From the NCBI GenBank assembly GCA_944332535.1, contig CALVKE010000011.1:1-47562 (forward strand): a stretch of 47,562 nucleotides of DNA, read 5' to 3'. This DNA is from an uncultured Bacilli bacterium. GTDB lineage: Bacteria > Bacillota_I > Bacilli_A > RF39 > UBA660. This document shows, piece by piece, positions 7,082-46,422 of the stretch (the stretch's first letter is position 1; every line of letters begins with the position of its first letter). The translations under genes were made by a program, and so were the position numbers. The notes under the pieces were generated by a model. The model was not told where the DNA came from. It did not search any database and worked only from the letters and a program-made list of their open reading frames with translations.

Positions 7082-7504
7082 CTATGAATTCTGTTTGTCG
7101 ATCGCATCAAAATCCAAAACGCTTGGAATGTTCTCATTGGTCGCAGCATTCACGGCAGGAGTCGGAGAAACACTCGTATTAGCGCCAGTTACATTAGATT
7201 CTGCAGTAGGTGGAACCGTATCCACCGTTGGAATCGTGTTTGGTGGCAGTGGAGACGATGGAATCGTCGATACCTCTGGATTTTCTGGAATCGTCGAAGT
7301 GTTAACATTAGATATATTAGCTTCCCCAACATTAGAAGAAGAAATAGAAACATCTGCTAACACGGCCTCTCTATTTTTCTTTTCCTGTTCTAATTGCTTT
7401 CTTTCAATTATGAAACCGATAATTGCCATGATAAAGATAATAGAAAGAACAACCACCACATAATAAATAGGACCATCTAAAAAATCTCGATAAAACCATA
7501 TCAT
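7082..7504 (-). CDS. Bitopic membrane protein with a Pro/Thr/Ser/Asn-rich low-complexity ectodomain
   Basis: There is a TM helix (IYYVVVVLSIIFIMAIIGFII), then a low-complexity stretch such as STIPENPEVSTIPSSPLPPNTIPTVDTVPPTAE. I moved the start to the ATG at 7504 (MIWFYRDF...) because the track's GTG at 7513 lies inside the SD GAGGGTG. Confidence 0.6.
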   Translation of the reverse strand: MIWFYRDFLDGPIYYVVVVLSIIFIMAIIGFIIERKQLEQEKKNREAVLADVSISSSNVGEANISNVNTSTIPENPEVSTIPSSPLPPNTIPTVDTVPPTAESNVTGANTSVSPTPAVNAATNENIPSVLDFDAIDKQNS

Positions 7505-7564
7505 TTTCTTCACCCTCTTTATTCTAATATCATTATACTAAAAGATAAAAAAATGTGCAACTCA

Positions 7565-8011
7565 TTAATCTGCTAAATCATCCACGTATCCATCACTTTC
7601 ATAATCCGAACACTTTAAATACGTTTGATATTGATAACTTTCTCCCTGATGTAAAATTTTGACATATCCGTTACAACCATCCGTATTTTCGAGATAATTT
7701 TTCTCTTTCAAGGTAGAAAAAGGAACAAATACACTATCTCCTTCTAATAATTGGCTATAATAATCTATCCGATACGCTTCTGCTGCCAATTGAGCATCTT
7801 TTATCAAATCTTGATATTTTTCCTTCCCACTCAAAGAAGAATCCGGAGTAGAACTAGGTTTTTCCTCTTCTTCTCCAAATTGAATAGAAGGTCCGTCTTT
7901 TTCTAAGCCTAATTTATAAGCATTTACACTTACTACTACAATACACAAAACAAAAATAACAACAAAGCCTAAGAAAACCCCAAGGCCCCATCCATGATTA
8001 TTTAATTTCAT
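7565..8011 (-). CDS. Bitopic membrane protein with a pilin-head-like Cys-bracketed C-terminal module
   Basis: 148 aa. The N-terminal anchor is GWGLGVFLGFVVIFVLCIVVV, followed by an acidic linker. The next segment, YQDLIKDAQLAAEAY...CNGYVKILHQGESYQYQTYLKCSDY, aligns by eye with residues about 41-123 of the 605-aa prepilin at 20992-22809. SD GGAGTG. Confidence 0.6.
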   Translation of the reverse strand: MKLNNHGWGLGVFLGFVVIFVLCIVVVSVNAYKLGLEKDGPSIQFGEEEEKPSSTPDSSLSGKEKYQDLIKDAQLAAEAYRIDYYSQLLEGDSVFVPFSTLKEKNYLENTDGCNGYVKILHQGESYQYQTYLKCSDYESDGYVDDLAD

Positions 8012-16108: not shown

Positions 16109-16768
16109 TTAAGATTCGCCGTTTTCCACAATAGACAAATAATTTTGACAAAAAATCAAAGGAATGAAAAAGAATAGTAACAAAATACCAACACCAAAGA
16201 AAAAAGAATATTTTTCTAAAAACTCGCTCTTCATCCAAAAACCAGTACTGAAAAGAAGAAGAACACTCATCAAAAAGGCAGGAAAACATTTTGAAAACAA
16301 AAAGTAGAAAAATAACATAGCAAGTGGAATGAACTCTTGAAAAAGGATATCAAAAAACAAAAATTGAAAACAAAATTGCCAAGGAATATCGAAAGAAGAA
16401 AAGAAAAAGGAAAAAAGGAGAAAGAGGCCTACTAAAAAGACCTTTAACAACAACTGAAAAAGAAAACAAGATAGTAGTTTAATTCGAATCCATTTTTTTA
16501 AACTCATACGCAAGAATAAAAAAGAGGGGTGTTCTTTTCTGTCTTTTGTAATTAAAAAAATAGAAAAATAAAGGTGAATCGCCATCCAAAAAAAGAGAAA
16601 AGGACCGTCGCCATAACCTAAAAAACGCAAATATCGTTCTGTAAAGGGCTGAAAATGTTGAAAAGAAAAAGCAAAACTACATCCAACGGTCAATGCAACA
16701 AGAAACAAAAGCAAGAAAGAAAACCGACGAAAGAAATAGAAAAAATCATTATATAATATATATTTCAT
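16109..16768 (-). CDS. Polytopic membrane protein, probable permease partner of the ABC ATPase (extremely Phe-rich)
   Basis: 219 aa with multiple hydrophobic segments. My hand count gives about 52 Phe out of 219 residues. The ATGA overlap with the ATPase stop at 16765-16768 implies translational coupling. Confidence 0.6.
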   Translation of the reverse strand: MKYILYNDFFYFFRRFSFLLLFLVALTVGCSFAFSFQHFQPFTERYLRFLGYGDGPFLFFWMAIHLYFSIFLITKDRKEHPSFLFLRMSLKKWIRIKLLSCFLFQLLLKVFLVGLFLLFSFFFSSFDIPWQFCFQFLFFDILFQEFIPLAMLFFYFLFSKCFPAFLMSVLLLFSTGFWMKSEFLEKYSFFFGVGILLLFFFIPLIFCQNYLSIVENGES

Positions 16769-17412
16769 AGACCCTCACGACTTACTTCTTTTACGACTCC
16801 CGCATCAAACTCATATACGACATCTACAATTGTTTGAATATCTTCTTTGATATGGGTTGCTAAAATAATGGTTTTCCCCATCTCTTTTAATCGCACTAAC
16901 TCTTCTCTTAACGCATCGGTCGTCTCTTTTTCAATTCCGTTAAACGGCTCATCTAAAATAAGAATATCTACATCTTCCATTAACACTTGCGCAATTCCTA
17001 ACTTCTGCTTCATTCCTAAGGAGTACTCACTAAATTTTTGATTTCTCTCATCATAAAGACGTACTCTTTTTAAAGCGTCCAAAATTTTCTCATCTCCTAT
17101 TTTATCTTGAATAGAAGCTAATAATTTTAAATTTCGATATCCAGATAAATGCGGTAAAAAACTGGGTTTTTCAATCAATGCTCTCGTACTAGGGGCAAAG
17201 TCACGTTCCTTTATAACATTCTTTCCATCAAAGAGCACCTCTCCAGAAGTAGGAACGTAAAACCCGCAAATAATTTTCAAAAGAACACTTTTTCCACTTC
17301 CGTTTTTCCCAATAAAACCATATATTTTACCAGGATTCAATTCCATATTAACATTTTCTAACACCGTATGGTTTTTAAATTTTTTAGAAACATTTACAAC
17401 ATCAATTCTCAT
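16765..17412 (-). CDS. ABC transporter ATP-binding protein (ABC-2/DrrA-like single NBD)
   Basis: 215 aa with Walker A GKNGSGKS, signature LGMKQKLGIA and Walker B ILILDEP. Confidence 0.9.
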   Translation of the reverse strand: MRIDVVNVSKKFKNHTVLENVNMELNPGKIYGFIGKNGSGKSVLLKIICGFYVPTSGEVLFDGKNVIKERDFAPSTRALIEKPSFLPHLSGYRNLKLLASIQDKIGDEKILDALKRVRLYDERNQKFSEYSLGMKQKLGIAQVLMEDVDILILDEPFNGIEKETTDALREELVRLKEMGKTIILATHIKEDIQTIVDVVYEFDAGVVKEVSREGL

Positions 17413-17468
17413 CTTTTACTCCTTAAAAATAAATAAGAAAAATCAATCTCCTTTTCCAACGAAAAAGA

Positions 17469-18347
17469 TTAACTTGCCTCTTCATTACAAATAATAAATT
17501 TTTCCTTATCGCGGTAATAATAATGTAAAAATAAAGTTGTTAACAAATATAATACGACCATAATGGAAAGAACCAAACCTAAATTAGTAAATTCATCTAC
17601 TTGCCAAGAGGCAATCAAACTAAAATTAGAAGCAATATTCTCGATTCCTAATATCTTCCGAATAAAGATACCACCAACAAAGAATTCCAAAATAATCTGT
17701 AGAGCCATATAAAACACAAAAGATTTAAAGGTTCCAATCAAAAAGTTAGACGATTTTTTCAAACAAATAAATGCAATATTAACACATAAAAGCATATGAA
17801 AAACAATAATTGAAAAATAAAGAAGCAAAAATTGTCCAAAATGTTGATAATAATATTCTATTAGTTGCAGATTTCTAGTATTTAGATAATCAAAATTTCC
17901 CTGTGTAGCAATAATACAGATAAAAAAGAACAATAGAAAGGCACACGGAACAATAAAAATAGTTTTTTTAATCGCATCAAAATAGATATTCCTCTTTTCC
18001 TTTTGATAACTCGTTCTAGTTAATTCGTTTTTATAAAACCCAGATTTCACTAAACGATAGACGGAGAAAGTTGCAAGAGAAAAAATAATGATTGGTAAAA
18101 ATAAAAATTTTGCTGTTGCAGTTTTCGTATCCGCAATAAATAAAGTGATTGCATCTAGACTTTCTATTTTGGCGTTTTCAATATATTTTTGAATATCCTC
18201 ACAATTGTTTTTTTCTTCACAAGTAGGAAGCATTTCCTCATATATTTTTATTACTTCCTGGGAATAACGAAATTCTCCTATAAGATAGTAACAAAAAAAC
18301 AAGACAAGACCCAGCATGACGAGAATTGACACAAAATACTTCTTCAT
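17469..18347 (-). CDS. Polytopic membrane protein, probable ABC-2-type permease
   Basis: 292 aa with an N-terminal TM, a roughly 50-aa loop containing 3 Cys, and at least five further hydrophobic segments. It is the first gene of the three-gene unit with the ATPase. Confidence 0.55.
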   Translation of the reverse strand: MKKYFVSILVMLGLVLFFCYYLIGEFRYSQEVIKIYEEMLPTCEEKNNCEDIQKYIENAKIESLDAITLFIADTKTATAKFLFLPIIIFSLATFSVYRLVKSGFYKNELTRTSYQKEKRNIYFDAIKKTIFIVPCAFLLFFFICIIATQGNFDYLNTRNLQLIEYYYQHFGQFLLLYFSIIVFHMLLCVNIAFICLKKSSNFLIGTFKSFVFYMALQIILEFFVGGIFIRKILGIENIASNFSLIASWQVDEFTNLGLVLSIMVVLYLLTTLFLHYYYRDKEKFIICNEEAS

Positions 18348-20249: not shown

Positions 20250-20333
20250 TGTGGTATATGATTTCCTAATGGAAACCGAAGCGATGCAAAACGCATCGGG
20301 CTGGCGGATAGTTTATATTCTTTTCCTCCCACA
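20250..20333 (-). promoter_or_regulatory. Candidate L1-binding 23S-stalk mimic abutting the rplA SD
   Basis: The minus strand reads UGUGG-GAGGAAAAG...(inner hairpin CGAUGC-GUUUU-GCAUCG)...UCAUAUA-CCACA-UAAGGAGG. Compare the 23S H76-78 strands GGUGG-GAGGC... and ...GAAAUA-CCACC. The closing helix ends 1 nt before the SD. Confidence 0.5.
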
Positions 20334-20362
20334 CAGGTTAACAACCTATATGTGAACTAAGT

Positions 20363-20788
20363 TTAATCTACGATTTCAATACCCATATTACGTGCAGTAC
20401 CTTCTACAATTTTCATTGCATCTTCTACTGTATAAGCATTCAAATCTGGTAATTTAGTTTCGGCAATCTCCTTTAATTGAGCTCTTGTAATCTTACCAAC
20501 AACATCACTAGATCCTTTTGTAGATCCCTTACTAATTCCTGCGGCTTTCTTAAGTAAGAATGGTGCTGGTGGAGTCTTAATTACAAAATCGAAAGATCTA
20601 TCATCATAAATAGAAATTTCAACTGGTAAAATATCTCCCATTTTATCTCTAGTTGCATCATTATATTTTGTACAGAACTCTTGTAAATTGATTCCTGCAG
20701 GTCCTAACACTGTTCCAACTGGTGGAGCAGGGGTAGCTTTTCCAGCAGCAATCTGTAATTTTACTTTTTTTACAACTTCTTTTGCCAC
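20363..20788 (-). CDS. rplK: 50S ribosomal protein L11
   Basis: I moved the start to the GTG at 20788 ([25 protein letters not shown]...), because the track's GTG at 20797 is part of the SD GGAGGTG. Confidence 0.95.
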
Positions 20789-20828
20789 GAAAAACACCTC
20801 CTATAAATTTTCTTATCACGTTTTCGCG

Positions 20829-20865
20829 AGTGGTCCTAATAGCTTTTTCCGCCAAGCTTCCCACT
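20829..20865 (-). promoter_or_regulatory. Candidate L1-binding stalk mimic in the rplK leader
   Basis: The minus strand reads AGUGG-GAAGCUU-GGCGGAAA-AAGCU-AUUAGGA-CCACU. It has the same helix/internal-loop layout as the 23S L1 stalk and as the site at 20250-20333. Confidence 0.45.
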
Positions 20866-20898
20866 AAATTTGCCTATATAAATCCATATAGCACGTAA

Positions 20899-20927
20899 AT
20901 AATAACATTAAAGTCTTGAAAAATCAA
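20899..20927 (-). promoter_or_regulatory. SigA-type promoter of rplK-rplA
   Basis: The minus strand reads TTGATT-17 nt-TATTAT with an extended -10 TG (TGTTATTAT). Confidence 0.55.
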
Positions 20928-20952
20928 GTGTTTTTTATAATTTTTATCAATT

Positions 20953-20984
20953 TAAAAGAAAAGACTTAGTGTTTGAGCACTAAG
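20953..20984 (-). terminator. Rho-independent terminator after the prepilin-like gene
   Basis: CTTAGTG-CTCAAA-CACTAAG is followed by TCTTTTCTTTT on the minus strand, 8 nt after the stop codon. Confidence 0.7.
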
Positions 20985-20991
20985 CTTATCT

Positions 20992-22809
20992 TTAACGGCA
21001 ACTACAATTTCGAGTACACTGAGTATAAGTACAACTTTTACATTCGTTACTACCAACATGGCTTGGTCCGTTACAACTATATCCTTGGGATTCATATACC
21101 GATGGCCGATGTTCTGGAGCACAAGCAACCTCCCCGTCTGCACTACATGCAAAGACTACGTCACATTGCCAAGTACAATTTCTTTCCCAATGTGCATATA
21201 ACGTTTGATTTGCAGTAATAGAAACAAGATTAGAAGAAGTAATTTGAGACCCTCCCGAAGCAGAAGTAAACCATCCTTTAAATGTATGTTCTGCTCTACT
21301 TGGTGTTGGTAGGCTACCGTACGTAGAAGCATAGCTTACTGTCTTACTACCAGGAGAAACACTTCCACCGTTGGCATTAAAGAATACCGTATAAGTACGA
21401 GGATTCCAACGAGCATATAATGTCTGATTAGAAGTGATATTAACGCGACTACCAGAAGTAATTTGTGTACCACCAGAAGTTGCTGTATACCATCCACCAA
21501 AATTGTAACCTGCCCTGCTTGGAGTAATTAAATTACCATAAGTATTTCCATAAGTGACATTCATTACAGTAGAAGCAGGAGTTCCTCCATTTCCATTGAG
21601 TGTAACTTTATAAGTATTGGCTTTCCAAACAGCATTTAATACATGATTAGAAGTGGTATTCACGACCGTTGTATTGAAAATACGATTTCCACTAGCATTA
21701 TTCCATCCTTGGAATGTATATCCTACTCTACTTGGATTTGGTAGTGTTCCATAGGGCTCTGCATAAATAACTGTTTTACTTGTCGGAGAAACGCTTCCGC
21801 CATTGGCGTTAAAAGTTACCGTAGATCGAGCAGTAATAATAACAGAAGTCGATGCTTGGCTTACCAATCCAGCACCAGTCGTAGCACTACAAGTAACGTT
21901 ATTTCGTCTAGTAAGTCCTAATTCAGAAACAGTCGCATTCTTAGAAATTGTACCATTATCATTTAAATAAAGTGTGGTACTACCTGATTTACATTCTATC
22001 ACTCCGCCGCTTGGCCCAAAAGAACCTATTTCAAACAAGTCAGACACTTTCGTCGTCTTATAACTCGTATCATTCCATAAAAATTCATTACTCGGACTTT
22101 TGCTTGTTAGGGTAATTGGATTTTTATCAATTCTAACCGGATATACTTCCGTCGATTCACTGATATTACCATCTTTATCTATGGCTCTCACACTAACATC
22201 ATGAGATTCACTCAAAACAAACGAGTCTCCCGAAAAATCCTCCCATTCTTCTCCATCAAGAGATCTTTGATAAGTAGCTACTTCCGCACCAAAAAGTTCG
22301 TTGTTAAAAAATTGTTGATAAATATTTTTACTACTCCAAGTACCTGCAGAATAACTTGCTCCATTTTGATTTTCGTACTTTAAAACATAATCCACAGCAT
22401 ATACAGATTCATCCAAATCACAACTCGCATTTTCCGTTTTATATTCTCCACAAGTCATACAGACTGTATAATCATAATCATTATTACCTTTCTTTTGAAT
22501 AATGACATATCCTTCTTCACATGGATTTCCATCTTTATCCGTAATTTGTTCCATCTCATTATACTTAACAATTTGATCTATCGTAATCTTTTTCACAGAC
22601 CCTACTGTTCTTGGCAAAAAACTACGATTTTCAAGAGAAAAATCAATAGCAGATAACCGAACATTATCTTCCAAAACTTGATAATATTGATCTCCCGTCT
22701 GATCAATAAAACTTTTTACTGCAGGATATGCAATAATCATTAAAACCGGAAGAATAACTAAAACTGCTAATAATTCAATCAAGGTAAATCCTTTCTTACT
22801 CGCTTTCAT
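20992..22809 (-). CDS. Chimeric type IV prepilin-like surface protein: class III signal, pilin-like head, three Listeria-Bacteroides (Flg_new) repeats and a Cys-rich tail
   Basis: 605 aa. The N-terminus MKASKKG|FTLIELLAVLVILPVLMIIAYPAV has the canonical prepilin-peptidase motif with Glu at +5. Residues about 328-543 are three repeats of about 72 aa (..F.ANGG.....K.V.Y...YG.LP.PSR.GY.F.GW......G..I.......I..N..LYA.W). The last 61 aa contain 10 Cys. Confidence 0.8.
   Translation of the reverse strand: MKASKKGFTLIELLAVLVILPVLMIIAYPAVKSFIDQTGDQYYQVLEDNVRLSAIDFSLENRSFLPRTVGSVKKITIDQIVKYNEMEQITDKDGNPCEEGYVIIQKKGNNDYDYTVCMTCGEYKTENASCDLDESVYAVDYVLKYENQNGASYSAGTWSSKNIYQQFFNNELFGAEVATYQRSLDGEEWEDFSGDSFVLSESHDVSVRAIDKDGNISESTEVYPVRIDKNPITLTSKSPSNEFLWNDTSYKTTKVSDLFEIGSFGPSGGVIECKSGSTTLYLNDNGTISKNATVSELGLTRRNNVTCSATTGAGLVSQASTSVIITARSTVTFNANGGSVSPTSKTVIYAEPYGTLPNPSRVGYTFQGWNNASGNRIFNTTVVNTTSNHVLNAVWKANTYKVTLNGNGGTPASTVMNVTYGNTYGNLITPSRAGYNFGGWYTATSGGTQITSGSRVNITSNQTLYARWNPRTYTVFFNANGGSVSPGSKTVSYASTYGSLPTPSRAEHTFKGWFTSASGGSQITSSNLVSITANQTLYAHWERNCTWQCDVVFACSADGEVACAPEHRPSVYESQGYSCNGPSHVGSNECKSCTYTQCTRNCSCR
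21181..21828 (-). repeat. Three tandem coding repeats of about 216 nt (Flg_new / InlB B-repeat type) inside the prepilin-like gene
   Basis: The protein-level repeats are TVTFNANGGSVSPTSKTVIYAEPYGTLPNPSRVGYTFQGW..., YKVTLNGNGGTPASTVMNVTYGNTYGNLITPSRAGYNFGGW... and YTVFFNANGGSVSPGSKTVSYASTYGSLPTPSRAEHTFKGW.... Confidence 0.8.
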
Positions 22810-22822
22810 TATTCCACCTCAT

Positions 22823-23692
22823 TTACTTTAAAATTAATACTACCACGCGATAATTACCTTGAAAATAACTATTAAAATAACTATCATCATCATTCGTAGA
22901 AAAGGCCAAGTATTCTCCGTCTAAAGAATAATTGTCTAAAGAAATCGTAGATATCGTTTGCAAACTTTCCAGAGAAACACGATTTAAAAAATCTTCTTTT
23001 TGCTCCGTACCTTTTGCATACTCAATATAATTAGCAATACTTTGTCTTAAACTCTCTCTTACCGTATCTAAACTAGCCGCAAACGTCACAACTTTATGGG
23101 AAAAAGCATTTGTCTCTTCTTTATAAATGATGGACCCTTTTCGATTATACACTTTTCCTTCCCAACTATCCTGCAAATTTCCCTTTTGATAATCTTCTAA
23201 CGAAATCGTAGCATCTAAAGTTTCTTTTAGGGTGATTTCTTTATTTAAGTCCATTTTAATTCGGTATTGATCCTCTTTTTTATCTACCTCAATTCCATCT
23301 TCTAAAAAATGATAATCATTCGTAGTATTGGTATTAAACACTGCTAGGAAACTAAGATCTTTACTCTTTTGCTGTAAAACAGTATCAATAAGACCTAGGG
23401 CAACTACTTCTTCCAGATAATCTTCGCTACTCAAGACATCATTTTCAACATTAATAACAATAGTCTCTTTCTTGGAATCGTTCAATTCAAAATGAGAAGA
23501 GTCTCGTTTTTTAGCAGTTACCTTCACCTCTTCTCCATCGACAAAGGAAGAAATATTTCGTTCATTAAATTGCTCTACGATAGTATCTAATCGATTCTCT
23601 ATTTGCTGACCTTTAGAAAAAAGAGATAAAAAAACTCCCATTATAATAAAACACAAACCACACAATAACAATAACACTCTTCTTTTGTTCAT
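22823..23692 (-). CDS. Signal-anchored extracytoplasmic protein of unknown function (first gene of the prepilin cassette)
   Basis: 289 aa. The N-terminus is MNKRRVLLLLCGLCFIIMGVFLSLF, followed by an acidic, Asp/Glu/Ser-rich soluble part in which I recognise no motif. The stop lies 13 nt before the prepilin ATG. Confidence 0.6.
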   Translation of the reverse strand: MNKRRVLLLLCGLCFIIMGVFLSLFSKGQQIENRLDTIVEQFNERNISSFVDGEEVKVTAKKRDSSHFELNDSKKETIVINVENDVLSSEDYLEEVVALGLIDTVLQQKSKDLSFLAVFNTNTTNDYHFLEDGIEVDKKEDQYRIKMDLNKEITLKETLDATISLEDYQKGNLQDSWEGKVYNRKGSIIYKEETNAFSHKVVTFAASLDTVRESLRQSIANYIEYAKGTEQKEDFLNRVSLESLQTISTISLDNYSLDGEYLAFSTNDDDSYFNSYFQGNYRVVVLILK

Positions 23693-23721
23693 TACATTAC
23701 ACTTCCCTCTATTTTATCCTC

Positions 23722-23751
23722 ATTCTAACACGCGAAGCAAAAATTTGTCAA
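23722..23751 (-). promoter_or_regulatory. SigA-type promoter of the 289-aa/605-aa cassette
   Basis: The minus strand reads TTGACA (23746-23751)-18 nt-TAGAAT (23722-23727) with an upstream TG (TGTTAGAAT). Confidence 0.6.
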
Positions 23752-23761
23752 GTACAAGAAG

Positions 23762-23807
23762 TGCAAACAAAAACAGTTATCTTCCATCAATAAAAGAAAA
23801 TAACTGT
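23762..23807 (-). terminator. Rho-independent terminator after the nusG-coupled ORF
   Basis: A 12-bp stem ACAGTTATTTTC/GAAGATAACTGT (one G:U pair) is followed by TTTTTGTTTG on the minus strand. Confidence 0.7.
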
Positions 23808-23817
23808 CATCATTTTA

Positions 23818-24219
23818 TTATTTACGAATCAAATTAGTGTGATCCATCGTAAATGTCGGACTATTTAAAATTCCTTGTCCGAGCAATAAATCTAATTTTT
23901 GAAATTCGATTTCAGCAATTTTATTCGATAATAATTTACTAGCAACCGGTTGATAACGCTTTTTTAACTCAGTCTCATTGCGACCACTAGCATAATAGTC
24001 ATCACAAATTTTAGCATCAAACGGATAAAGCAAAGTCGAAGAAACTAAGATTCCCTCAACAGAATCCAAAGCATATCCTAGTTCTTTTTGTACAACATGA
24101 ACGATTTCTTTTTCCGAAAGATCACCGCGCTTAGCATATAAATCATATGCCTTTTGTTTCAATTCTACATATTCATCTGCAGGAAATGACGTCAACAGTT
24201 CTTGAAAACTAACCTTCAT
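23818..24219 (-). CDS. 133-aa soluble protein of unknown function, translationally coupled to nusG
   Basis: It has no TM or signal and starts MKVSFQELLTSFPADEYVELKQKAYDLYAKRGDLSEKEIVHVVQKELGY.... Its ATG overlaps the nusG TAA (TAATG at 24219). Confidence 0.6.
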   Translation of the reverse strand: MKVSFQELLTSFPADEYVELKQKAYDLYAKRGDLSEKEIVHVVQKELGYALDSVEGILVSSTLLYPFDAKICDDYYASGRNETELKKRYQPVASKLLSNKIAEIEFQKLDLLLGQGILNSPTFTMDHTNLIRK

Positions 24220-24755
24220 TATTTCAATACCTCAATTTCTGATAAATCAACTTCGATAGAAGTTTCTTGTCCAAACAAATCAACAAGTAACATAATCTTT
24301 GAATTTGGAATATCCATCGAATCGATTTTTCCAATCATTCCTTCAAATGGACCGGAAGCAATCTTGACTTTCGTTCCAACCGCTAAATCTTTGTCTACTT
24401 CAATACGACTCATTCCCATATCTTTTAAGATTTTATCCACTTCATATGGTTGTAAAGGAGTAGGTTTGGCACCCTTTCCACTAGAACCGATAAATCCAGT
24501 TACTCCTGGAGTATTACGCACAACATACCAAGCATCATCGCTCATAACCATTTCCACTAAGATATATCCAGGAAACATTTTCTTAACTTTTTCTTTTTCT
24601 ACTCCATCTTTTACTTCGACAACCTTCTCTTCAGGAACGATTACTCGAAAAATATAGTCTTTCATATCCATGCTTTCAGCACGCATTTCTAATTTTTCTT
24701 TTACCTTATTCTCATGTCCAGAATAGGTGTTAACAACATACCATTCTTTTTCCAT
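24219..24755 (-). CDS. nusG: Transcription termination/antitermination factor NusG
   Basis: 178 aa. The NGN domain starts WYVVNTYSGHENKV, and the KOW segment is VGTKVKIASGPFEGMIGKI. Confidence 0.95.
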   Translation of the reverse strand: MEKEWYVVNTYSGHENKVKEKLEMRAESMDMKDYIFRVIVPEEKVVEVKDGVEKEKVKKMFPGYILVEMVMSDDAWYVVRNTPGVTGFIGSSGKGAKPTPLQPYEVDKILKDMGMSRIEVDKDLAVGTKVKIASGPFEGMIGKIDSMDIPNSKIMLLVDLFGQETSIEVDLSEIEVLK

Positions 24756-24758
24756 CTT

Positions 24759-25091
24759 CTACACCCACGCTTTCACTAATGCCATAATTGCTTCGATTGC
24801 ATAGAAAAATACTCCAAAAAATAGAACAAAGCAAATAGTAGCAATAGAATATTTTACCATGTCATTTCGACTTGGCCATTTAACTTTATCAAGTTCTGCT
24901 TTTACTTCTTTTAAAAACTTTATTGGCCCTCCATGTTGCTTCTTTTCTTTTTTCTTAGTTTTCTTAGAAGTTTTCGATACGGCCTTCTTTTTTTCTTCTG
25001 TTTTATCCTTCTTTGCTATTTTTGAAGAAACTTTTTTTACTTCCTCTTCGACATCAACGATATCGCGAGTTGCTTTTACAACTTTTGCCAT
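24759..25091 (-). CDS. secE: Preprotein translocase subunit SecE with a Lys-rich N-terminal extension
   Basis: 110 aa. The C-terminal 55 aa are SecE-like (FLKEVKAELDKVKWPSRNDMVKYSIATICFVLFFGVFFYAIEAI). The N-terminal roughly 50 aa are a K/E-rich low-complexity stretch. Confidence 0.85.
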   Translation of the reverse strand: MAKVVKATRDIVDVEEEVKKVSSKIAKKDKTEEKKKAVSKTSKKTKKKEKKQHGGPIKFLKEVKAELDKVKWPSRNDMVKYSIATICFVLFFGVFFYAIEAIMALVKAWV

Positions 25092-25112
25092 TTTTCCACC
25101 TCATTTTTTATC

Positions 25113-25161
25113 AAAATAAAAACACCGTTTCCGTGTTAGTTATAAAATAGCACAGAAACGG
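25113..25161 (-). terminator. Hairpin plus T-run between the sortase gene and secE (terminator or leader attenuator)
   Basis: An 11-bp stem CCGTTTCTGTG/CACGGAAACGG (one G:U pair) has a 15-nt loop and is followed by TGTTTTTATTTTG. A TTGACT-17-TATTTT promoter-like sequence overlaps the 5' arm, so the function is ambiguous. Confidence 0.45.
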
Positions 25162-25209
25162 AGAAAAGTCAACATTCTAAGCATTTTTTACTACAAAATA
25201 AATACGCTT

Positions 25210-26061
25210 TTAAGAATTTGTTCTTTCGTTTCTCTTAATCAGCTTAGCTTGCACCACTATCCTTTGTCCGTTATTATCCTTACAAGTGGATAGGGTTAAA
25301 ATAGAATCTTCTACTGTTACTTCTGTATCAACAGGGGCAGTATTTCTTTTCTTCATAGTATCAATCCAAGCTTGTTTTGCCTCATCTGTTTCAAAAGTAG
25401 TCATAATGTAATAGGATTCCGCTTCGATCGTGTAGATAGAAAAAATTTGATATACATAATTATAACGAGGAGTAGATATTCGAATAATATAATTGTCCTT
25501 ATTTTCTTGCCAAGAAGTAGTTAAGACCTTTTTTAAAGAACCAAAAACCGTATTATCTACTCTACCATGTCCATATATTACTGTATTATCCGATAAATCG
25601 TCCAAATTGTTTCGATAATCCAAAAAGACCCAACCAGCAGAATTTTTTGTTTTATCAAACGCATGCGTCAAATAATAAGTATTATCTCCGCTATAGACGA
25701 CAGGATAATTAATATTGGTATTATTTACTTTAATATATCCGACAGTATCCGAATTTTTTTCTTTTAACTTGGAAAAATCCACTTGCATAAAGGGAACTTT
25801 TATATAATAGTAGTAATCACTTTCTTTATCCGGAGAAGGATTCACCAATACCTCATTATCCGGTAAATGAATGGTATTATCATCCACCTCGACAATATCA
25901 GCCATCTCTTCTAATTCTTTCTGTAACTTTTCGTTATTTTGCCCATCTTGTCCCCAGTGAAACACATAGTACGCGCCACCGATAAACAAAGAGGCAAAAA
26001 GGACAAAAAGAAACACAACGACCCAAAGTCTTAAACGATACCTCTTTTTTCGCTTCGTCAT
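25210..26061 (-). CDS. srtB: Class B sortase
   Basis: 283 aa with an N-terminal anchor. Motifs are GYIKVNNTNINYPVVYSGDNTYYLTH, VIYGHGR and the catalytic ILTLSTC...R. The adjacent gene ends in an NPxTxD-type sorting signal. Confidence 0.8.
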   Translation of the reverse strand: MTKRKKRYRLRLWVVVFLFVLFASLFIGGAYYVFHWGQDGQNNEKLQKELEEMADIVEVDDNTIHLPDNEVLVNPSPDKESDYYYYIKVPFMQVDFSKLKEKNSDTVGYIKVNNTNINYPVVYSGDNTYYLTHAFDKTKNSAGWVFLDYRNNLDDLSDNTVIYGHGRVDNTVFGSLKKVLTTSWQENKDNYIIRISTPRYNYVYQIFSIYTIEAESYYIMTTFETDEAKQAWIDTMKKRNTAPVDTEVTVEDSILTLSTCKDNNGQRIVVQAKLIKRNERTNS

Positions 26062-26084
26062 ACGATCACATCCTAAAAACGTCT

Positions 26085-26112
26085 AAATGAAAAGTGATGT
26101 TACCATCACTTT
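26085..26112 (-). terminator. Hairpin after the surface-protein gene (weak or partial terminator)
   Basis: It has a 9-bp stem AAAGTGATG-GTAA-CATCACTTT, but the trailing T-run is poor (TCATTTAGACGTTTTT). Confidence 0.4.
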
Positions 26113-26117
26113 CCTTT

Positions 26118-27398
26118 TTAATTACTTAATCTTTTTTTCATGGTACGAAGAGTAATGCCAAGTCCTAGAAGACCAATACCAGATAATGTAACAGCAAGCA
26201 TTACAGGATCAGAAGTACTTGGGTTTGGTTCAGATTCTTCGGGATCAGTTGGAACAGTTGGATCGCCAGTACCTTCATCCGTATCTTCCATAGAACCTAA
26301 AATAGCATATTCACTCAAGTGAGTAGTGTTAAATACGGCATAATCTCCTTCTACTTGAACAGCAAAAGTTTCTACGACTTTATTATCTTTGATATAAGCA
26401 GCTGTTAAAGTAGTATACTTTTTCATTTCGTCTGTTAATTTGATTCTAATTGTAAACTTTCCATCTTCCATAGGAACAATGTCATTATTCTCGTCTAAAA
26501 TTGAAATATCATAGAAAGCAAGTAAATCTTTATTTAAAGCTTCAATTTCTGAAGTTAACTCGTCACTAGCATCTGCAAGAATATTTTTGCTTTCTAGTTT
26601 ATAATTCGTATTCAAATTCGTTTCAGATTCAAATACAACTTCTTCATCGGTCAATACTTTGTTATCAGAGAAAACAACACTTCCATCTTCTCCATAAGTA
26701 ACCATTTTATCGGTTTTGATATGAGAGTTAACCCACTCTTCTGTAATTGCACCAGGTACAACATGATAATCTGGATTAATGAAGTAAAGAGAACTATCAT
26801 ATTCAATTCCTTCTAAAGCGGAATTAAATTTTTTTGCTTCCTCAAATTTTGCCTCAAAATCTTCTTTTGAAGTAACTAAGAAATTATCTCCATTTTCATC
26901 TAATACTTTGTACTGAGCACCATTAATATCTCTGAAGATAACATAGTATAATTGGTTACCATCTTCATCCAATGTTTTTTCGGTTCCATAAATACCCTTT
27001 ACCGTCAAAGAACCTTCTCCTGTAATAATGTAGTCATCATCTACAAGAAGATCGATGGCATTTTTTCCATTAACCACAATTGTACTGGTAGGAACTACCA
27101 TGTTTTCAGATCCTCCATAAAGATAAAAACTTTGGTCTTTTGCAAATTCAAATGTATTTTTAGAATCTGTAAAAGTTCCGATAGTTACTTCTTCTGTAGT
27201 TGGATTCGTAACACAAGTATGACTTGTTAGAGTCATAGAATCATTCAAAGATCCTACTCCACAAATATCACGTTCAGAAACACCCCACATGATTTCATAA
27301 TCTGGGGCTGCTATAGATGCCTTTACCAACATTGGAGAAAGAACCATCGCACACGCCAAAACGCCAAACACTTTTTTGCCTATTTTACTTGACAACAT
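26118..27398 (-). CDS. Cell-wall-anchored surface protein with an NPSTSD (SrtB-type) sorting signal
   Basis: The signal peptide is MLSSKIGKKVFGVLACAMVLSPMLVKASIAA, with the start moved to the ATG at 27398, 8 nt after AAGGGA. The C-terminus is NPSTSD followed by the hydrophobic PVMLAVTLSGIGLLGLGITL and then RTMKKR. Confidence 0.75.
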   Translation of the reverse strand: MLSSKIGKKVFGVLACAMVLSPMLVKASIAAPDYEIMWGVSERDICGVGSLNDSMTLTSHTCVTNPTTEEVTIGTFTDSKNTFEFAKDQSFYLYGGSENMVVPTSTIVVNGKNAIDLLVDDDYIITGEGSLTVKGIYGTEKTLDEDGNQLYYVIFRDINGAQYKVLDENGDNFLVTSKEDFEAKFEEAKKFNSALEGIEYDSSLYFINPDYHVVPGAITEEWVNSHIKTDKMVTYGEDGSVVFSDNKVLTDEEVVFESETNLNTNYKLESKNILADASDELTSEIEALNKDLLAFYDISILDENNDIVPMEDGKFTIRIKLTDEMKKYTTLTAAYIKDNKVVETFAVQVEGDYAVFNTTHLSEYAILGSMEDTDEGTGDPTVPTDPEESEPNPSTSDPVMLAVTLSGIGLLGLGITLRTMKKRLSN

Positions 27399-27457
27399 AT
27401 CTATCATCCCTTTCACTATTATAATATCAAAAATTTATGTTATGTGTCAATACGATT

Positions 27458-28024
27458 CTAACTGAGTAATAACAAAATATATCCAATTAATAACAAGACA
27501 ACAGCCAAATTAATAATAAGAAGAAAATAATTCGTAAAAGCTTGATTGCCACTTGATGCAACAGTTACATCATCTCCTTCTAACTGTTGAATATAATCAT
27601 CGTAGTACAACTGTTCTTTCAAAAAAAGTACTCTCTTAAAATAGATAAAATCATCCGGATGAAAAAAGTGTTCTAGCGTATCAAGATTCTCTTTCAAAAC
27701 ATCCAAACTAAGTAAGGGTAAACGATAATCGTAAGAGTCTAAAAAACTACCAATTGCCATAATTGCTAAGGTTTGAATATTATCAAATTTCATTTGCATG
27801 ATCTCTTCCATTGTTGCCTTTCCAATCTTTTCGTAAGAAGCAAACTTAATATCGGTAGGATTCGTAAAACAAACTCCAATCGTTCGATAATGAAACCGCA
27901 ATATTCTCTTTCCGTCATTATGAAAGCGATGCATCTCTTTCGAAATAGCAAGGAACACTTTTCTTTTCTCTGCCATCGTTCGATAACTAGAAAGATATTC
28001 TTCTAAACTAATCCGATTATCCAT
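27458..28024 (-). CDS. Tail-anchored membrane protein of unknown function immediately downstream of the sigma-factor gene
   Basis: 188 aa with no N-terminal signal. The single TM is at the extreme C-terminus (FTNYFLLIINLAVVLLLIGYILLLLS). The gene lies 24 nt after the sigma-factor stop. Confidence 0.6.
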   Translation of the reverse strand: MDNRISLEEYLSSYRTMAEKRKVFLAISKEMHRFHNDGKRILRFHYRTIGVCFTNPTDIKFASYEKIGKATMEEIMQMKFDNIQTLAIMAIGSFLDSYDYRLPLLSLDVLKENLDTLEHFFHPDDFIYFKRVLFLKEQLYYDDYIQQLEGDDVTVASSGNQAFTNYFLLIINLAVVLLLIGYILLLLS

Positions 28025-45300: not shown

Positions 45301-46422
45301 CTACATCTTATCCAACAATTTATCTAATTTCCTACTTTTGAAATGAAAAATGATCCAACAAATAAGAGCAATAATAACAAGAATTCCTAAAACAACAAAG
45401 GCTATTTTCTTTTGTTTTTCCGTAATAACAAACTTTTTTTCTTCCGCTTGTTCTTCCTCTTTTTCGATGCCGTTACTTACTCGATTAATACGAATAGTAT
45501 AAGTTTGTTCCTCTCCATTTTCTGCTTTTACTACAATTCTTACATCGGAGCCGGAAGCGATAGAATCGGCACCAATAATTTCATAAGTTGCTTTACTATC
45601 AGCGGGTTCTGCGTGAACTGTTAAAGATTCTACATCCTCACTAACAGTAATATAGTAATGGTATTGATCTTCTTTAAAAGGAATTTCATAATGATCGATT
45701 GTTAGTGTTTTCAGATTTGCATTGGAAGAGGTGGAAATATCCGGAGTGGGAGAAGGTGTTGCATGAGAGGTAAAATTCTCTTTAGCCTGCTCTAATTGTT
45801 CATTGGTAACTTCGATATTGGGTTCGCTTTCAATTACAACACTCGTCTCTGGTGGAGCAGTTACTTCGGTCTCACTTTTTAAAATGGAAACAGTAGTAAT
45901 TGATTCTGTCGTATATTCTAATAATTCCGCATTTTCTTCCAAATAGCTTTCCAACGTCGGGTCGACTTTAAATCCACCGGCCGCTGCTTCTAATACTTTG
46001 ATGTCCACCGTCTCTTTTGAATCATTTTTAACATAAAATCTGATATTAGCAGAATAATCGGTACAAGCCAAAAATTGATCGACACACTTATTTCCGGTAG
46101 AATCCAGATCAATAATACTAAGAATATAATAATAATTATCATCTTTGTATATTTGTGCATCATAAAAATCTGTCAAAACTCCACTGATTTCTAAGACGGA
46201 ATCATCAAATGCAAGAGCTAATACCACCGTATAAATACCGGTAGTATTTTCACTATTTCGATCGATTCCAGAAAAACGAACATTAACCGGAAGATAAAAG
46301 CTTGATCCAACAGATTGTTCCGTATTGATATCGGATATAGAAACACTAGAAATAGAAGCTGCACTTACGCTAAACGGGACAAGAAAAAACATTAACAATA
46401 GAATAACAATAAACTTCTTCAT
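45301..46422 (-). CDS. Membrane-anchored surface protein with a cohesin-like N-domain and a cadherin-like beta-sandwich domain
   Basis: 373 aa. The signal peptide is MKKFIVILLLMFFLVPFSVSAAS. The segment NANLKTLTIDHYEIPFKEDQYHYYITV...VHAEPADSKATYEIIG...VKAENGEEQTYTIRINR fits the cadherin-like beta-sandwich pattern. The C-terminal TM is IAFVVLGILVIIALICWIIF. Confidence 0.65.
   Translation of the reverse strand: MKKFIVILLLMFFLVPFSVSAASISSVSISDINTEQSVGSSFYLPVNVRFSGIDRNSENTTGIYTVVLALAFDDSVLEISGVLTDFYDAQIYKDDNYYYILSIIDLDSTGNKCVDQFLACTDYSANIRFYVKNDSKETVDIKVLEAAAGGFKVDPTLESYLEENAELLEYTTESITTVSILKSETEVTAPPETSVVIESEPNIEVTNEQLEQAKENFTSHATPSPTPDISTSSNANLKTLTIDHYEIPFKEDQYHYYITVSEDVESLTVHAEPADSKATYEIIGADSIASGSDVRIVVKAENGEEQTYTIRINRVSNGIEKEEEQAEEKKFVITEKQKKIAFVVLGILVIIALICWIIFHFKSRKLDKLLDKM

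What the first reader, a model, noticed from the sequence alone, without database searches (positions are those of the whole stretch)
20992..22809. Chimeric prepilin combining a class III signal, a pilin head, three Flg_new repeats and a 10-Cys tail
The N-terminus MKASKKG|FTLIELLAVLVIL... is a textbook prepilin-peptidase substrate (Gly at -1, Phe at +1, Glu at +5). At 605 aa, however, the protein is several times the size of a normal Gram-positive pilin or pseudopilin.

After a Cys-containing head (residues about 35-135) and about 190 aa of unassigned sequence, it carries three tandem Listeria-Bacteroides / InlB-B-type repeats. These repeats are usually found on LPXTG or lipoprotein adhesins, not on pilins.

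The protein ends in a 61-aa tail with 10 cysteines (NCTWQCDVVFACSADGEVACAPEH...NECKSCTYTQCTRNCSCR), which is unusual for an exported Firmicute protein. Two DKDGN motifs also occur (residues about 91 and 211).

This architecture suggests a pilus- or pseudopilus-presented adhesin (a tip or minor pilin) with a disulfide- or metal-stabilised knob.
Basis: partly seen in the sequence, partly recalled or inferred. Interest (0 to 1): 0.75.

Follow-up and report, generated by a model that had tools for sequence, protein, structure and literature searches.

The report
Modular pilin-like adhesin, cysteine-rich tip
This gene encodes a large pilin-like surface protein (pilin module, two Ig-like domains, three InlB-type repeats, cysteine-rich end), an unnamed member of the known class of modular type IV pilins from an uncharacterised gut Firmicute family.

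Summary
It has a class III signal peptide (MKASKKG|FTLIE), three Flg_new repeats and 10 Cys in its last 61 residues.

The "unassigned" 190 aa are two Ig-like beta-sandwich domains. The "head" is a small pilin module with four conserved Cys.

That module defines a large family absent from Pfam and NCBIfam: 754 proteins at E<1e-8. It includes ~130-aa stand-alone pilins and modular proteins up to 1,883 aa. About a third of 103 sampled members end in Cys-rich tails. Pilin + Flg_new fusions recur in P0022, P0024, P0122 and a 734-aa L100 protein.

So this is a new member of the known class of modular type IV pilins (S. sanguinis PilB/PilC), not a unique chimera.

The pilus link is unproven:
- No prepilin peptidase or assembly gene lies in the window or near 16 of 17 family loci.
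- One locus (L100) sits beside a Tad-like ATPase cluster.
- A second head-domain gene in the window (7565-8011), and close relative P0027, lack the class III motif.

A non-polymerised, membrane-anchored reading therefore remains open. The target's tail has no detectable homologue. Interest is moderate.

The parts
22726..22809 (-). Class III (prepilin) signal peptide, aa 1-28. Leader is MKASKKG with Gly at -1, then F+1 and E+5, followed by the hydrophobic alpha1-N segment with Pro at mature positions 14 and 22.
   Evidence: Pfam N_methyl 26.2 bits against GA 21.2. TIGR02532 30.7 bits against 16.3. Across 92 aligned family heads, E5 is present in 92/92, G-1 in 86/92 and F+1 in 87/92.
22405..22809 (-). 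Pilin module, aa 1-135. A long alpha1 helix (10-60) is followed by a small beta-sheet (72-76, 99-108, 111-120). Four conserved Cys sit at 97, 117, 120 and 130.
   Evidence: AF2 with a 119-sequence MSA gave pLDDT 86. A profile of the head hits only type IV pilins and pseudopilins in the PDB, aligned mainly on alpha1. In the non-redundant protein collection 754 proteins match at E<1e-8. Cys pattern: CCCC in 83 heads, C-C- in 7, other in 2.
22120..22389 (-). Ig-like beta-sandwich domain 1, aa about 141-230. It is Big_13/OmpL47-type and contains the second DKDGN.
   Evidence: AF2 strands 142-227. Foldseek matches tandem Ig, Fn3 and cadherin adhesin stalks. NF047446 scores 23.4 bits, below its cut-off of 40. 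The same domain is repeated up to 39 times in giant proteins that score as Big_13.
21823..22116 (-). Ig-like beta-sandwich domain 2, aa about 232-329. C273 and C307 are invariant among close relatives. The domain ends in 'ITARS', which corresponds to the 'ARHSYPA' junction found in relatives.
   Evidence: AF2 strands 234-326 with pLDDT above 90. Alignment A4. Tail junction motif.
21181..21822 (-). Three Flg_new / List_Bact_rpt (InlB B-repeat type) repeats, aa 330-399, 400-472 and 473-543. They are 44-51% identical to each other.
   Evidence: Pfam PF09479 162.4 bits, 3 stretches. TIGR02543 x3. Pairwise identities. PDB InlB B-repeat 2y5p is a weak sequence match.
20995..21177 (-). Cys-rich C-terminal tail, aa 545-605, with 10 Cys. 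There is no LPXTG motif and no transmembrane segment. The stop codon is at 20992-20994.
   Evidence: Cys count and positions. Enrichment P about 1e-10. No homologue found. It is not a frameshifted remnant of the relatives' Gly-rich domain.
22823..23692 (-). Upstream partner gene, 289 aa. It has an N-terminal signal-anchor and no Pfam hit. Its stop lies 13 nt upstream of the pilin ATG, so co-transcription is likely.
   Evidence: ORF listing. No Pfam hit. A 42%-identical, 289-aa orthologue sits directly upstream of the 60%-identical pilin orthologue in MAG MGBC162581, where the flanking genes differ (recA and a Zn-ribbon gene).
23722..23751 (-). Promoter-like site, TTGACA-18-TAGAAT with an extended -10 TG, upstream of the partner gene.
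   Evidence: 11 of 12 consensus matches; tied for best-scoring site in 20300-25300 (the other 11/12 match lies inside rplK). This is a consensus match only.
20964..20985 (-). Intrinsic-terminator-like hairpin with a T-run, starting 7 nt after the stop codon.
22814..22820 (-). Shine-Dalgarno sequence GAGGTGG, ending 4 nt before the ATG.
   Evidence: Read from the sequence.

Best explanation
The gene encodes a modular type IV pilin-like adhesin.

Proposed mechanism (all steps inferred):
1. The prepilin inserts into the membrane through its class III signal peptide.
2. A prepilin peptidase encoded elsewhere in the genome removes MKASKKG.
3. The mature protein is held by, and probably polymerised through, its alpha1-N helix into a type IV filament, most likely at the tip. 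The 470-residue C-terminal extension would clash with subunits stacked above it.
4. The small four-Cys pilin head acts as the carrier.
5. Two Ig-like domains and three InlB-type B-repeats form a stalk roughly 20 nm long by rough estimate.
6. A 61-residue knob with 10 Cys, probably five disulfides, is the distal and fast-evolving binding or capping element.

The gene forms a two-gene unit with a conserved 289-aa membrane-anchored partner of unknown role.

Shown here: the sequence features, the predicted folds, family membership, synteny with the partner, and absence of assembly genes nearby.

Inferred, not shown: cleavage, polymerisation, tip location, disulfides and adhesion.
For: - The class III signal passes the curated cut-offs.
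- E5, G-1 and F+1 are almost invariant across 92 family heads. E5 is needed for pilin processing and assembly, not for simple membrane anchoring (established knowledge).
- The AF2 model (pLDDT 86) shows a 50-residue alpha1 helix, a small beta-sheet and then two beta-sandwich domains. The latter match adhesin stalks such as SiiE, MpIBP, Bap, GhpA and cadherins.
- A profile of the head matches only pilins and pseudopilins in the PDB.
- The head also occurs as about 130-aa stand-alone pilins, and fused to lectin (Laminin_G_3, as in S. sanguinis PilC), DUF5011/HYR, DUF285, ALK_LTK_GRD and DUF4214 modules. This is the grafting pattern reported in PMC8179133.
- In L100 a head-family pilin with a Cys tail and an N_methyl+Flg_new pilin lie directly downstream of a cluster of RcpC/CpaB-like protein, T2SSE ATPase and two polytopic membrane proteins.
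- Every domain has an even Cys count (4 + 2 + 10).
- Cys pairs are gained and lost together. C117 and C130 are lost together in 7 heads. An extra C...C pair in Ig domain 1 is present in 3 of 5 close relatives.
- The gene looks expressed: strong SD, promoter-like site, terminator and a conserved orthologue-plus-partner pair.
Against: - No prepilin peptidase, extension ATPase or platform gene lies in the 47.6-kb window.
- None lies in the roughly 280 kb around 16 of 17 family loci. The same screen found machinery at 13 of 82 generic pilin loci.
- Family genes are scattered singly among housekeeping genes.
- Two relatives carry the same head on a non-class-III hydrophobic N-terminus: window 7565-8011 and P0027.
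- The top 50 Foldseek hits contain no pilin, because the Ig domains dominate the search. The pilin fold of the head therefore rests on predicted secondary structure and alpha1-level sequence similarity.
- The whole genome was not available.
Confidence: 0.55

Rival explanations
1. It is a pilin-derived but non-polymerised surface protein. The class III helix, cleaved or not, serves only as an N-terminal membrane anchor. The Ig and Flg_new stalk pushes the Cys knob through the cell wall. No pilus is involved.
For: - The gene is an orphan among housekeeping genes, as are 16 of 17 family loci.
- There are several paralogues per genome: three in MAG MGBC162581 and two head genes in this window.
- The head sits on an ordinary hydrophobic anchor without G|F..E in window 7565-8011 and in P0027.
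- The 470-aa extension is hard to accommodate in a filament body.
Against: - E5, G-1 and F+1 are almost invariant in 92 heads. A mere anchor would not require this.
- The head also occurs as minimal about 130-aa pilins.
- L100 links family members to a type IV filament ATPase cluster.
- Pilins with grafted extra modules are documented pilus components: the roughly 460-aa PilB of S. sanguinis, the 488-aa PilC, and CofB/TcpB (PMC8179133; protein lengths are from my own knowledge).
Confidence: 0.3
2. It is a minor pseudopilin of a competence (ComG) pilus or a type II secretion-like pseudopilus, rather than of an adhesive pilus.
For: The N-terminal 50 aa give weak hits to the ComGC, ComGD, ComGF, ComGE, GspG and GspH models. 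Bacilli commonly encode ComG systems (established knowledge).
Against: - All these equivalog scores are far below their cut-offs, for example ComGC 28 against 75 and GspG 20.9 against 88.85. They cover only alpha1.
- The gene is not in a comG-like operon.
- The adhesin-type modules have no counterpart in Com or T2SS pseudopilins.
Confidence: 0.08
3. It is a decaying or chimeric gene. The Cys tail would be a read-through or frameshift artefact of a lost C-terminal domain, with no function.
For: The tail has no homologue anywhere. The closest relatives carry a Gly-rich ALK_LTK_GRD domain at that position instead.
Against: - The 605-codon frame is intact, with a strong SD, and the stop codon sits directly before a terminator hairpin.
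- No alternative frame resembles the relatives' C-termini.
- Cys-rich tails occur at the same position in about a third of family members (35 of 103).
- The Cys count is even.
Confidence: 0.04

Closest known systems
Modular type IV pilins of Streptococcus sanguinis: PilB (pilin + vWA) and PilC (pilin + ConA-like lectin) (Raynaud et al. 2021, PMC8179133)
   Same: Both have an N-terminal class III signal and a small pilin module, with functional modules grafted at the C-terminus. Both come from monoderm hosts and are predicted adhesins. Family members P0007 and P0009 even carry the PilC-type Laminin_G_3 module.
   Different: - The PilB and PilC genes lie in the pil locus and have been shown to be in pili. 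This gene is an orphan with no machinery in view.
- This protein has five stalk domains and a Cys-rich cap rather than one module.
- Its head has four conserved Cys, and the S. sanguinis paper's main text does not mention disulfides or cysteines.
- No detectable sequence similarity beyond alpha1 (S. sanguinis PilE1 aligns over residues 1-54 only).
CofB / TcpB, the tip-located minor pilins of type IVb pili
   Same: Both have a pilin module followed by a flexible linker and beta-rich domains that project from the filament tip (as summarised in PMC8179133).
   Different: CofB and TcpB are from diderm type IVb systems, are trimeric initiators and are encoded in the pilus operon. No sequence or domain homology to them was tested or found here.
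Listeria internalins and other Flg_new (List_Bact_rpt / InlB B-repeat) surface proteins
   Same: The three repeats score strongly against PF09479 and TIGR02543 and align with the repeat region of the InlA and InlH models.
   Different: There are no LRR domains, no LPXTG motif and no GW anchor. Anchoring is N-terminal, through a pilin helix. Scores against the internalin models are far below their cut-offs (59.8 against 1600).
Tad/Flp (type IVc) pilus systems
   Same: One family locus (L100) lies next to an RcpC/CpaB-like gene, a T2SSE ATPase and two polytopic membrane proteins arranged like tadA-tadB-tadC.
   Different: Flp pilins are tiny and use a G/XXXXEY motif, whereas this protein has a GFTLIE-type signal. 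RcpC scores 24.6 bits, below its cut-off of 28.8. The two membrane proteins have no Pfam hit. No such cluster is seen near the target.

Membership tests
Type IV pilin / type IV filament subunit | Class III signal peptide: a short basic leader ending in Gly or Ala, then about 21 hydrophobic residues with Glu at +5. | tested here: met
   MKASKKG|FTLIELLAVLVILPVLMIIAYPAV. N_methyl 26.2 bits against 21.2. TIGR02532 30.7 bits against 16.3.
Type IV pilin / type IV filament subunit | Lollipop fold: an alpha1 helix of about 50 residues packed on an antiparallel beta-sheet head. | tested here: inconclusive
   The AF2 model (pLDDT 86) has helix 10-60 and strands 72-76, 99-108 and 111-120. The head profile hits only pilins in the PDB, mostly over alpha1. 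Foldseek was run on the whole model and returned only Ig-domain matches in the top 50. The head could not be searched alone.
Type IV pilin / type IV filament subunit | A dedicated prepilin peptidase (Peptidase_A24) in the genome, and N-terminal cleavage and methylation. | not testable with these tools
   None is present in the 47.6-kb window.
Type IV pilin / type IV filament subunit | An assembly machinery (extension ATPase plus platform protein) that polymerises the subunit. | tested here: inconclusive
   Absent from the window and from 16 of 17 family loci. The screen was validated on 13 of 82 generic pilin loci. It is present next to family member P0289 in L100.
Modular pilins (sensu Raynaud et al. 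2021) | [quoted passage not shown] | tested here: met
   N_methyl and the pilin head, followed by two Ig-like domains, 3 Flg_new repeats and the Cys tail. Definition taken from PMC8179133.
Flg_new / List_Bact_rpt repeat proteins | Repeats of about 70 aa matching PF09479 / TIGR02543 above the cut-off. | tested here: met
   162.4 bits against 27, 3 stretches. 70 bits against 20.95.
ComG competence pilins (ComGC/GD/GE/GF) and T2SS pseudopilins (GspG/H) | A score above the NCBIfam equivalog cut-off over the full-length model. | tested here: not met
   ComGC 28 against 75, ComGD 20.9 against 70, GspG 20.9 against 88.85, GspH 14.2 against 80. Only alpha1 is aligned.
Sortase-anchored (LPXTG) surface proteins / internalins | A C-terminal LPXTG-type motif followed by a hydrophobic segment and a basic tail. 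For internalins, also an LRR domain. | tested here: not met
   The C-terminus is ...CTRNCSCR, with no sorting motif and no transmembrane segment. Internalin models score far below their cut-offs and no LRR hit was found.
OmpL47-type / Big_13 Ig-like domains (middle region) | A score above the curated cut-off of NF047446 or PF19077. | tested here: inconclusive
   The target scores 23.4 bits against 40. Relatives reach 36.6 bits. Giant proteins that share the domain score as Big_13. The predicted fold is a beta-sandwich.

The most novel reading that the evidence does not exclude
The target belongs to a distinct, unannotated clade of pilin-headed surface proteins in gut Firmicutes. Its features:
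- A four-Cys pilin module serves as a general display scaffold.
- Stalk and cap modules are swapped onto it: Ig, Flg_new, lectin, Gly-rich domains and hypervariable Cys-rich knobs.
- The genes are scattered as orphans among housekeeping genes.
- Some members have exchanged the class III signal for an ordinary anchor.

On this reading the family would be served in trans by a Tad-like ATPase system of the kind seen in L100, or would not be polymerised at all. Either case would be a surface-display route different from canonical operon-encoded pili.
Probability: 0.2. Interest if true: 0.6.

Novelty: new member of a known kind. Interest (0 to 1): 0.4.

Why it matters
Modular pilins are thought to be a general way for bacteria to place binding modules on type IV filaments, but only a few have been studied. 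This gene points to a large, unnamed family in gut Firmicutes. The search found 754 proteins at E<1e-8, and no source gives them a name.

The family's carrier module, Ig and B-repeat stalks and cysteine-rich tips are all uncharacterised. If these proteins are displayed on filaments, they are candidate host- or glycan-binding adhesins of uncultured gut Bacilli. They would also be an unusual case of disulfide-rich exported proteins in anaerobic Firmicutes.

If they are not polymerised, they would show pilin modules reused as plain surface anchors. Both outcomes can be tested with one cultured representative.

Tried and rejected
- **Single-sequence AF2 of the full protein.** pLDDT was 34, which is unusable. 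I replaced it with an MSA-based model of aa 1-335.
- **Foldseek on the model.** The hits are dominated by the Ig domains and gave no information on the head.
- **Tail searches.** No word-sharing homologue. No phmmer match to other family tails. No PDB match. No Pfam or NCBIfam hit. The tail is therefore analogous to other family tails, not demonstrably homologous to them.
- **Frameshift-remnant hypothesis for the tail.** Rejected.
- **Recent duplication of the Flg_new repeats.** Rejected. They are only 44-51% identical at the protein level.
- **LPXTG or sortase substrate.** Rejected, despite a sortase gene 2.4 kb upstream.
- **ComG or Gsp membership.** Rejected on cut-offs.
- **289-aa partner protein.** No Pfam hit and no relative in the JGI metagenome contigs. 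It is found next to only the one orthologue.
- **Metagenome scan with the head alignment.** It used only the generic GFTLIELL pattern and mostly returned unrelated pilins. I used these as a positive control for the machinery screen.
- **Look-up of the target's own contig.** Not on record.
- **Organism.** Identified only as a relative of 'uncultured Bacilli bacterium MGBC162581'.
- **Paper tools.** The paper search failed on all five attempts. Two paper-reading runs by DOI and the supplement look-up also failed. I could therefore not check whether N_methyl + Flg_new is listed in Dataset S1 of PMC8179133.
Full report
**1. Observation**

The ORF at 20992..22809 is real, but it lies on the minus strand. 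It encodes 605 aa from an ATG. Only 3 sense codons separate that ATG from the upstream in-frame stop, and a GAGGTGG Shine-Dalgarno sequence sits at 22814-22820.

Pfam gives N_methyl at aa 4-28 (26.2 bits against a cut-off of 21.2) and three Flg_new repeats (162.4 bits against 27). NCBIfam gives IV_pilin_GFxxxE (30.7 against 16.3) and three List_Bact_rpt repeats.

A script confirmed the remaining details:
- 16 Cys in total, at 97, 117, 120, 130, 273 and 307 plus 10 in the last 61 residues.
- DKDGN at positions 91 and 211.
- This is the only class III signal motif in the six frames of the window.

The tail's Cys density is far from chance. Background is 0.85% in the other 44 ORFs, and none has more than 5 Cys in any 61-aa window. 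The binomial probability is about 1e-10.

**2. Setting**

All genes in the region are on the minus strand. They form the conserved Firmicute string cysS ... sigH-like sigma - secE - nusG - rplK - rplA - rplJ - rplL - methyltransferase - rpoB - rpoC.

The target and a 289-aa gene (22823-23692) are wedged between nusG (plus a 133-aa ORF) and rplK. The 289-aa protein has an N-terminal signal-anchor and no family hit. Its stop lies 13 nt upstream of the target's ATG.

A near-consensus promoter-like site precedes the 289-aa gene, and a terminator-like hairpin follows the target's stop codon. This looks like a self-contained two-gene unit.

No prepilin peptidase, T2SSE ATPase or platform gene lies anywhere in the 47.6-kb window. 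YabP/YabQ-like ORFs (recognised by eye, not scored against a family) and DivIC point to a sporulating Firmicute. Overall GC is 34%.

**3. Anatomy**

AF2 on the single full-length sequence failed (pLDDT 34). A 119-sequence alignment gave a confident model for aa 1-335 (pLDDT 86). The model shows:
- An alpha1 helix spanning residues 10-60.
- A small beta-sheet (72-76, 99-108, 111-120).
- Two beta-sandwich domains (142-227 and 234-326).

Foldseek against the PDB matched the tandem sandwiches to adhesin stalks: CbhA Fn3 modules, GhpA, the MpIBP ice adhesin, SiiE, Bap and cadherins. The first sandwich is a divergent Big_13/OmpL47-type Ig domain. The same domain is repeated up to 39 times in giant proteins.

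A profile of the head hits only type IV pilins and pseudopilins in the PDB: Geobacter PilA-N, S. sanguinis PilE1, MshA, gonococcal pilin and GspG. The alignment is mainly over alpha1.

The three Flg_new repeats are 44-51% identical to each other, so they are not a recent duplication.

**4. The family**

An exhaustive HMMER search with aa 29-335 found 487 cluster representatives at E<1e-3. A profile of the head found 754 proteins at E<1e-8, and the best-scoring ones are mostly 120-230-aa stand-alone pilins.

I examined 103 head-bearing proteins. Lengths run from 64 to 1,883 aa. Of the 103, 91 have G-[FMILVYW]-[TSA]-x-x-E. Most of the rest have Ala at -1 or are truncated.

In 92 aligned heads:
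- E5 is invariant (92/92).
- G-1 is present in 86 and F+1 in 87.
- The four Cys pattern is CCCC in 83, C-C- in 7 (C117 and C130 lost together), and other in 2.

The Cys pattern fits two disulfides, C97-C120 and C117-C130. A Cys4 zinc site cannot be excluded.

C-terminal modules vary widely:
- Laminin_G_3, the same module as in S. sanguinis PilC.
- DUF5011/HYR.
- DUF285.
- ALK_LTK_GRD, a Gly-rich domain.
- DUF4214.
- Cys-rich tails. 35 of 103 have at least 6 Cys in the last 70 aa. Eight end in [YT]xCPxGG[TS]L...C.[YF].

Within this sample, Cys-rich tails occur only on proteins with a class III-type N-terminus.

No Pfam or NCBIfam model covers the head or the tails. None of the relatives looked up is named by any source.

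**5. Closest relatives**

- **P0022** (818 aa, about 60% identity). It has the same head, the same Ig pair and three Flg_new repeats at the same position. It ends in a Gly-rich domain.
- **P0024** (1,009 aa). It has at least five Flg_new repeats plus ALK_LTK_GRD.
- **P0023 and P0288.** They duplicate the Ig pair and carry Gly-rich and Cys-rich regions.

P0022-like, P0023 and P0288 are three paralogues in one mouse-gut MAG, 'uncultured Bacilli bacterium MGBC162581'.

In that MAG the orthologue is again preceded by a 289-aa partner that is 42% identical. There it lies between recA and a Zn-ribbon gene. The pilin-partner pair is therefore conserved while its location is not.

In relatives the motif 'ARHSYPA' joins the last Ig domain to the Cys tail. 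In the target, 'ITARS' is followed by the Flg_new block. The block thus looks inserted between stalk and cap, and the cap has been swapped within the clade.

The target's own tail has no detectable homologue. It is not a frameshifted remnant of the Gly-rich domain.

An extra C...C pair in Ig domain 1 is present in 3 of 5 close relatives and absent from both positions in the other 2. This again behaves like a disulfide.

**6. Link to a filament machinery**

I screened all held loci with E. coli HofB, HofC and GspO as phmmer queries. The screen found machinery at 13 of 82 generic pilin loci, so the method works. It found none in the window and none at 16 of 17 head-family loci, which together cover about 280 kb.

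Family genes sit singly among housekeeping genes. Examples are dnaG-sigA-trmK, uvrC-mutL, efp and frr.

The exception is L100, from a 138-kb gut contig. Its gene order is DUF5411, RcpC/CpaB-like, T2SSE ATPase (90.8 bits), two polytopic membrane proteins, a deacetylase-like gene and a 220-aa ORF. These are followed directly by an N_methyl+Flg_new pilin (734 aa) and a head-family pilin with a Cys tail (594 aa, ending CPEGGTLNGTTCYYY). This is the only physical link found between the family and a type IV filament (Tad-like) system.

Two observations point the other way. The window holds a second gene with the same head, at 7565-8011 (148 aa; 38.8 bits, E 6e-12 against a profile lacking alpha1-N). 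Its N-terminus has no G|F..E motif. Close relative P0027 also lacks the motif.

**7. Interpretation**

The best reading is a modular type IV pilin-like adhesin (confidence 0.55). This is the 'carrier pilin plus grafted effector module' design shown for S. sanguinis PilB. That study reported more than 1,200 InterPro proteins in 264 architectures, probably located at filament tips (PMC8179133).

Cleavage, polymerisation, tip location, disulfides and adhesion are all inferred.

The main rival (0.3) is a pilin-derived protein that is only membrane-anchored and never polymerised. The orphan context and the class-III-less paralogues favour it. The near-invariance of E5, G-1 and F+1 and the L100 cluster argue against it.

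A ComG or T2SS pseudopilin role (0.08) fails the equivalog cut-offs. A decayed or artefactual tail (0.04) is contradicted by the gene's intact signals and by the recurrence of Cys tails at the same position.

**8. Novelty and verdict**

The architecture is not unique. Pilin + Flg_new fusions and pilin + Cys-rich tail proteins recur in gut metagenomes. None is characterised or named, and neither the head nor the tails have a family model.

This is a new member of a known kind, the modular pilins. It sits within a large unannotated family that a type IV pilus specialist would find moderately interesting. Interest is 0.4.

The most novel reading not excluded is a pilin-headed surface-display family that is served in trans by a Tad-like system, or is not polymerised at all. 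I give this a probability of about 0.2.

Noticed in passing
window 7565-8011 (-), with neighbour 7082-7513 (-): A 148-aa ORF just downstream of rpoC carries the same globular pilin head as the target (38.8 bits, E 6e-12; two-Cys 'C-C-' type). Its N-terminus, MKLNNHGWGLGVFLGF..., has no G|FTLxE motif and is followed by an acidic Ser/Pro linker. The next ORF (143 aa) is a transmembrane plus Pro/Thr/Ser-rich protein.
   Followed up: partly
L100:1749-11785: A gut-metagenome locus carries a Tad-like cluster: DUF5411, RcpC/CpaB-like, T2SSE ATPase and two polytopic membrane proteins with no Pfam hit. It is followed by two modular pilins, N_methyl+Flg_new (734 aa) and head-family+Cys tail (594 aa). 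A partially held upstream ORF (1,267-aa product by the gene call) with Cys-rich stretches precedes it.
   Followed up: partly
window 25210-27416 (-): A sortase gene (25210-26061) lies next to a 432-aa secreted protein (26118-27416). That protein's C-terminus reads ...EPNPSTSDP, then a hydrophobic segment, then KKR. This is an NPxTx-like rather than LPXTG sorting signal, so it is a possible dedicated sortase-substrate pair inserted between the sigH-like gene and secE.
   Followed up: no
window 16109-18347, 20992-24219 and 25210-28024: The conserved string sigH-secE-nusG-rplKAJL-methyltransferase-rpoBC is interrupted at three places by accessory genes. These are an ABC ATPase with two membrane proteins, the pilin unit with a 133-aa ORF, and the sortase unit with a 188-aa ORF.
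   Followed up: no
L014:9362-12701: The widespread 130-aa head-family pilin P0184 (found on 92 contigs) is followed, after a 2-nt gap, by an unknown 469-aa protein. About 2 kb further on is a bAvd gene (accessory variability determinant of diversity-generating retroelements). This raises the possibility of a DGR acting near some family members.
   Followed up: no
alignment A4, target residues S207 and E221 (window about 22147-22191): Among the five closest relatives, an extra Cys pair in Ig domain 1 (V-C-V-R ... S-C-Y) is present in three (P0023, P0024, P0027). Both positions lack Cys in the other two, the target and P0022. This is pairwise gain or loss, as expected for a disulfide.
   Followed up: partly
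window 45301-46422 (-): A 373-aa protein has a signal peptide, a Cadherin-like beta-sandwich domain (36.5 bits) and a C-terminal transmembrane anchor. It is another surface protein in the window.
   Followed up: no
L009:9295-9987 and L011:6151-6579; also L100:12688-13905: Proteins with an N-terminal zinc ribbon (Zn_Ribbon_1) flank head-family pilin genes in L009 and L011; in L100 one lies a single gene downstream. This may be coincidence or a recurrent neighbour.
   Followed up: no
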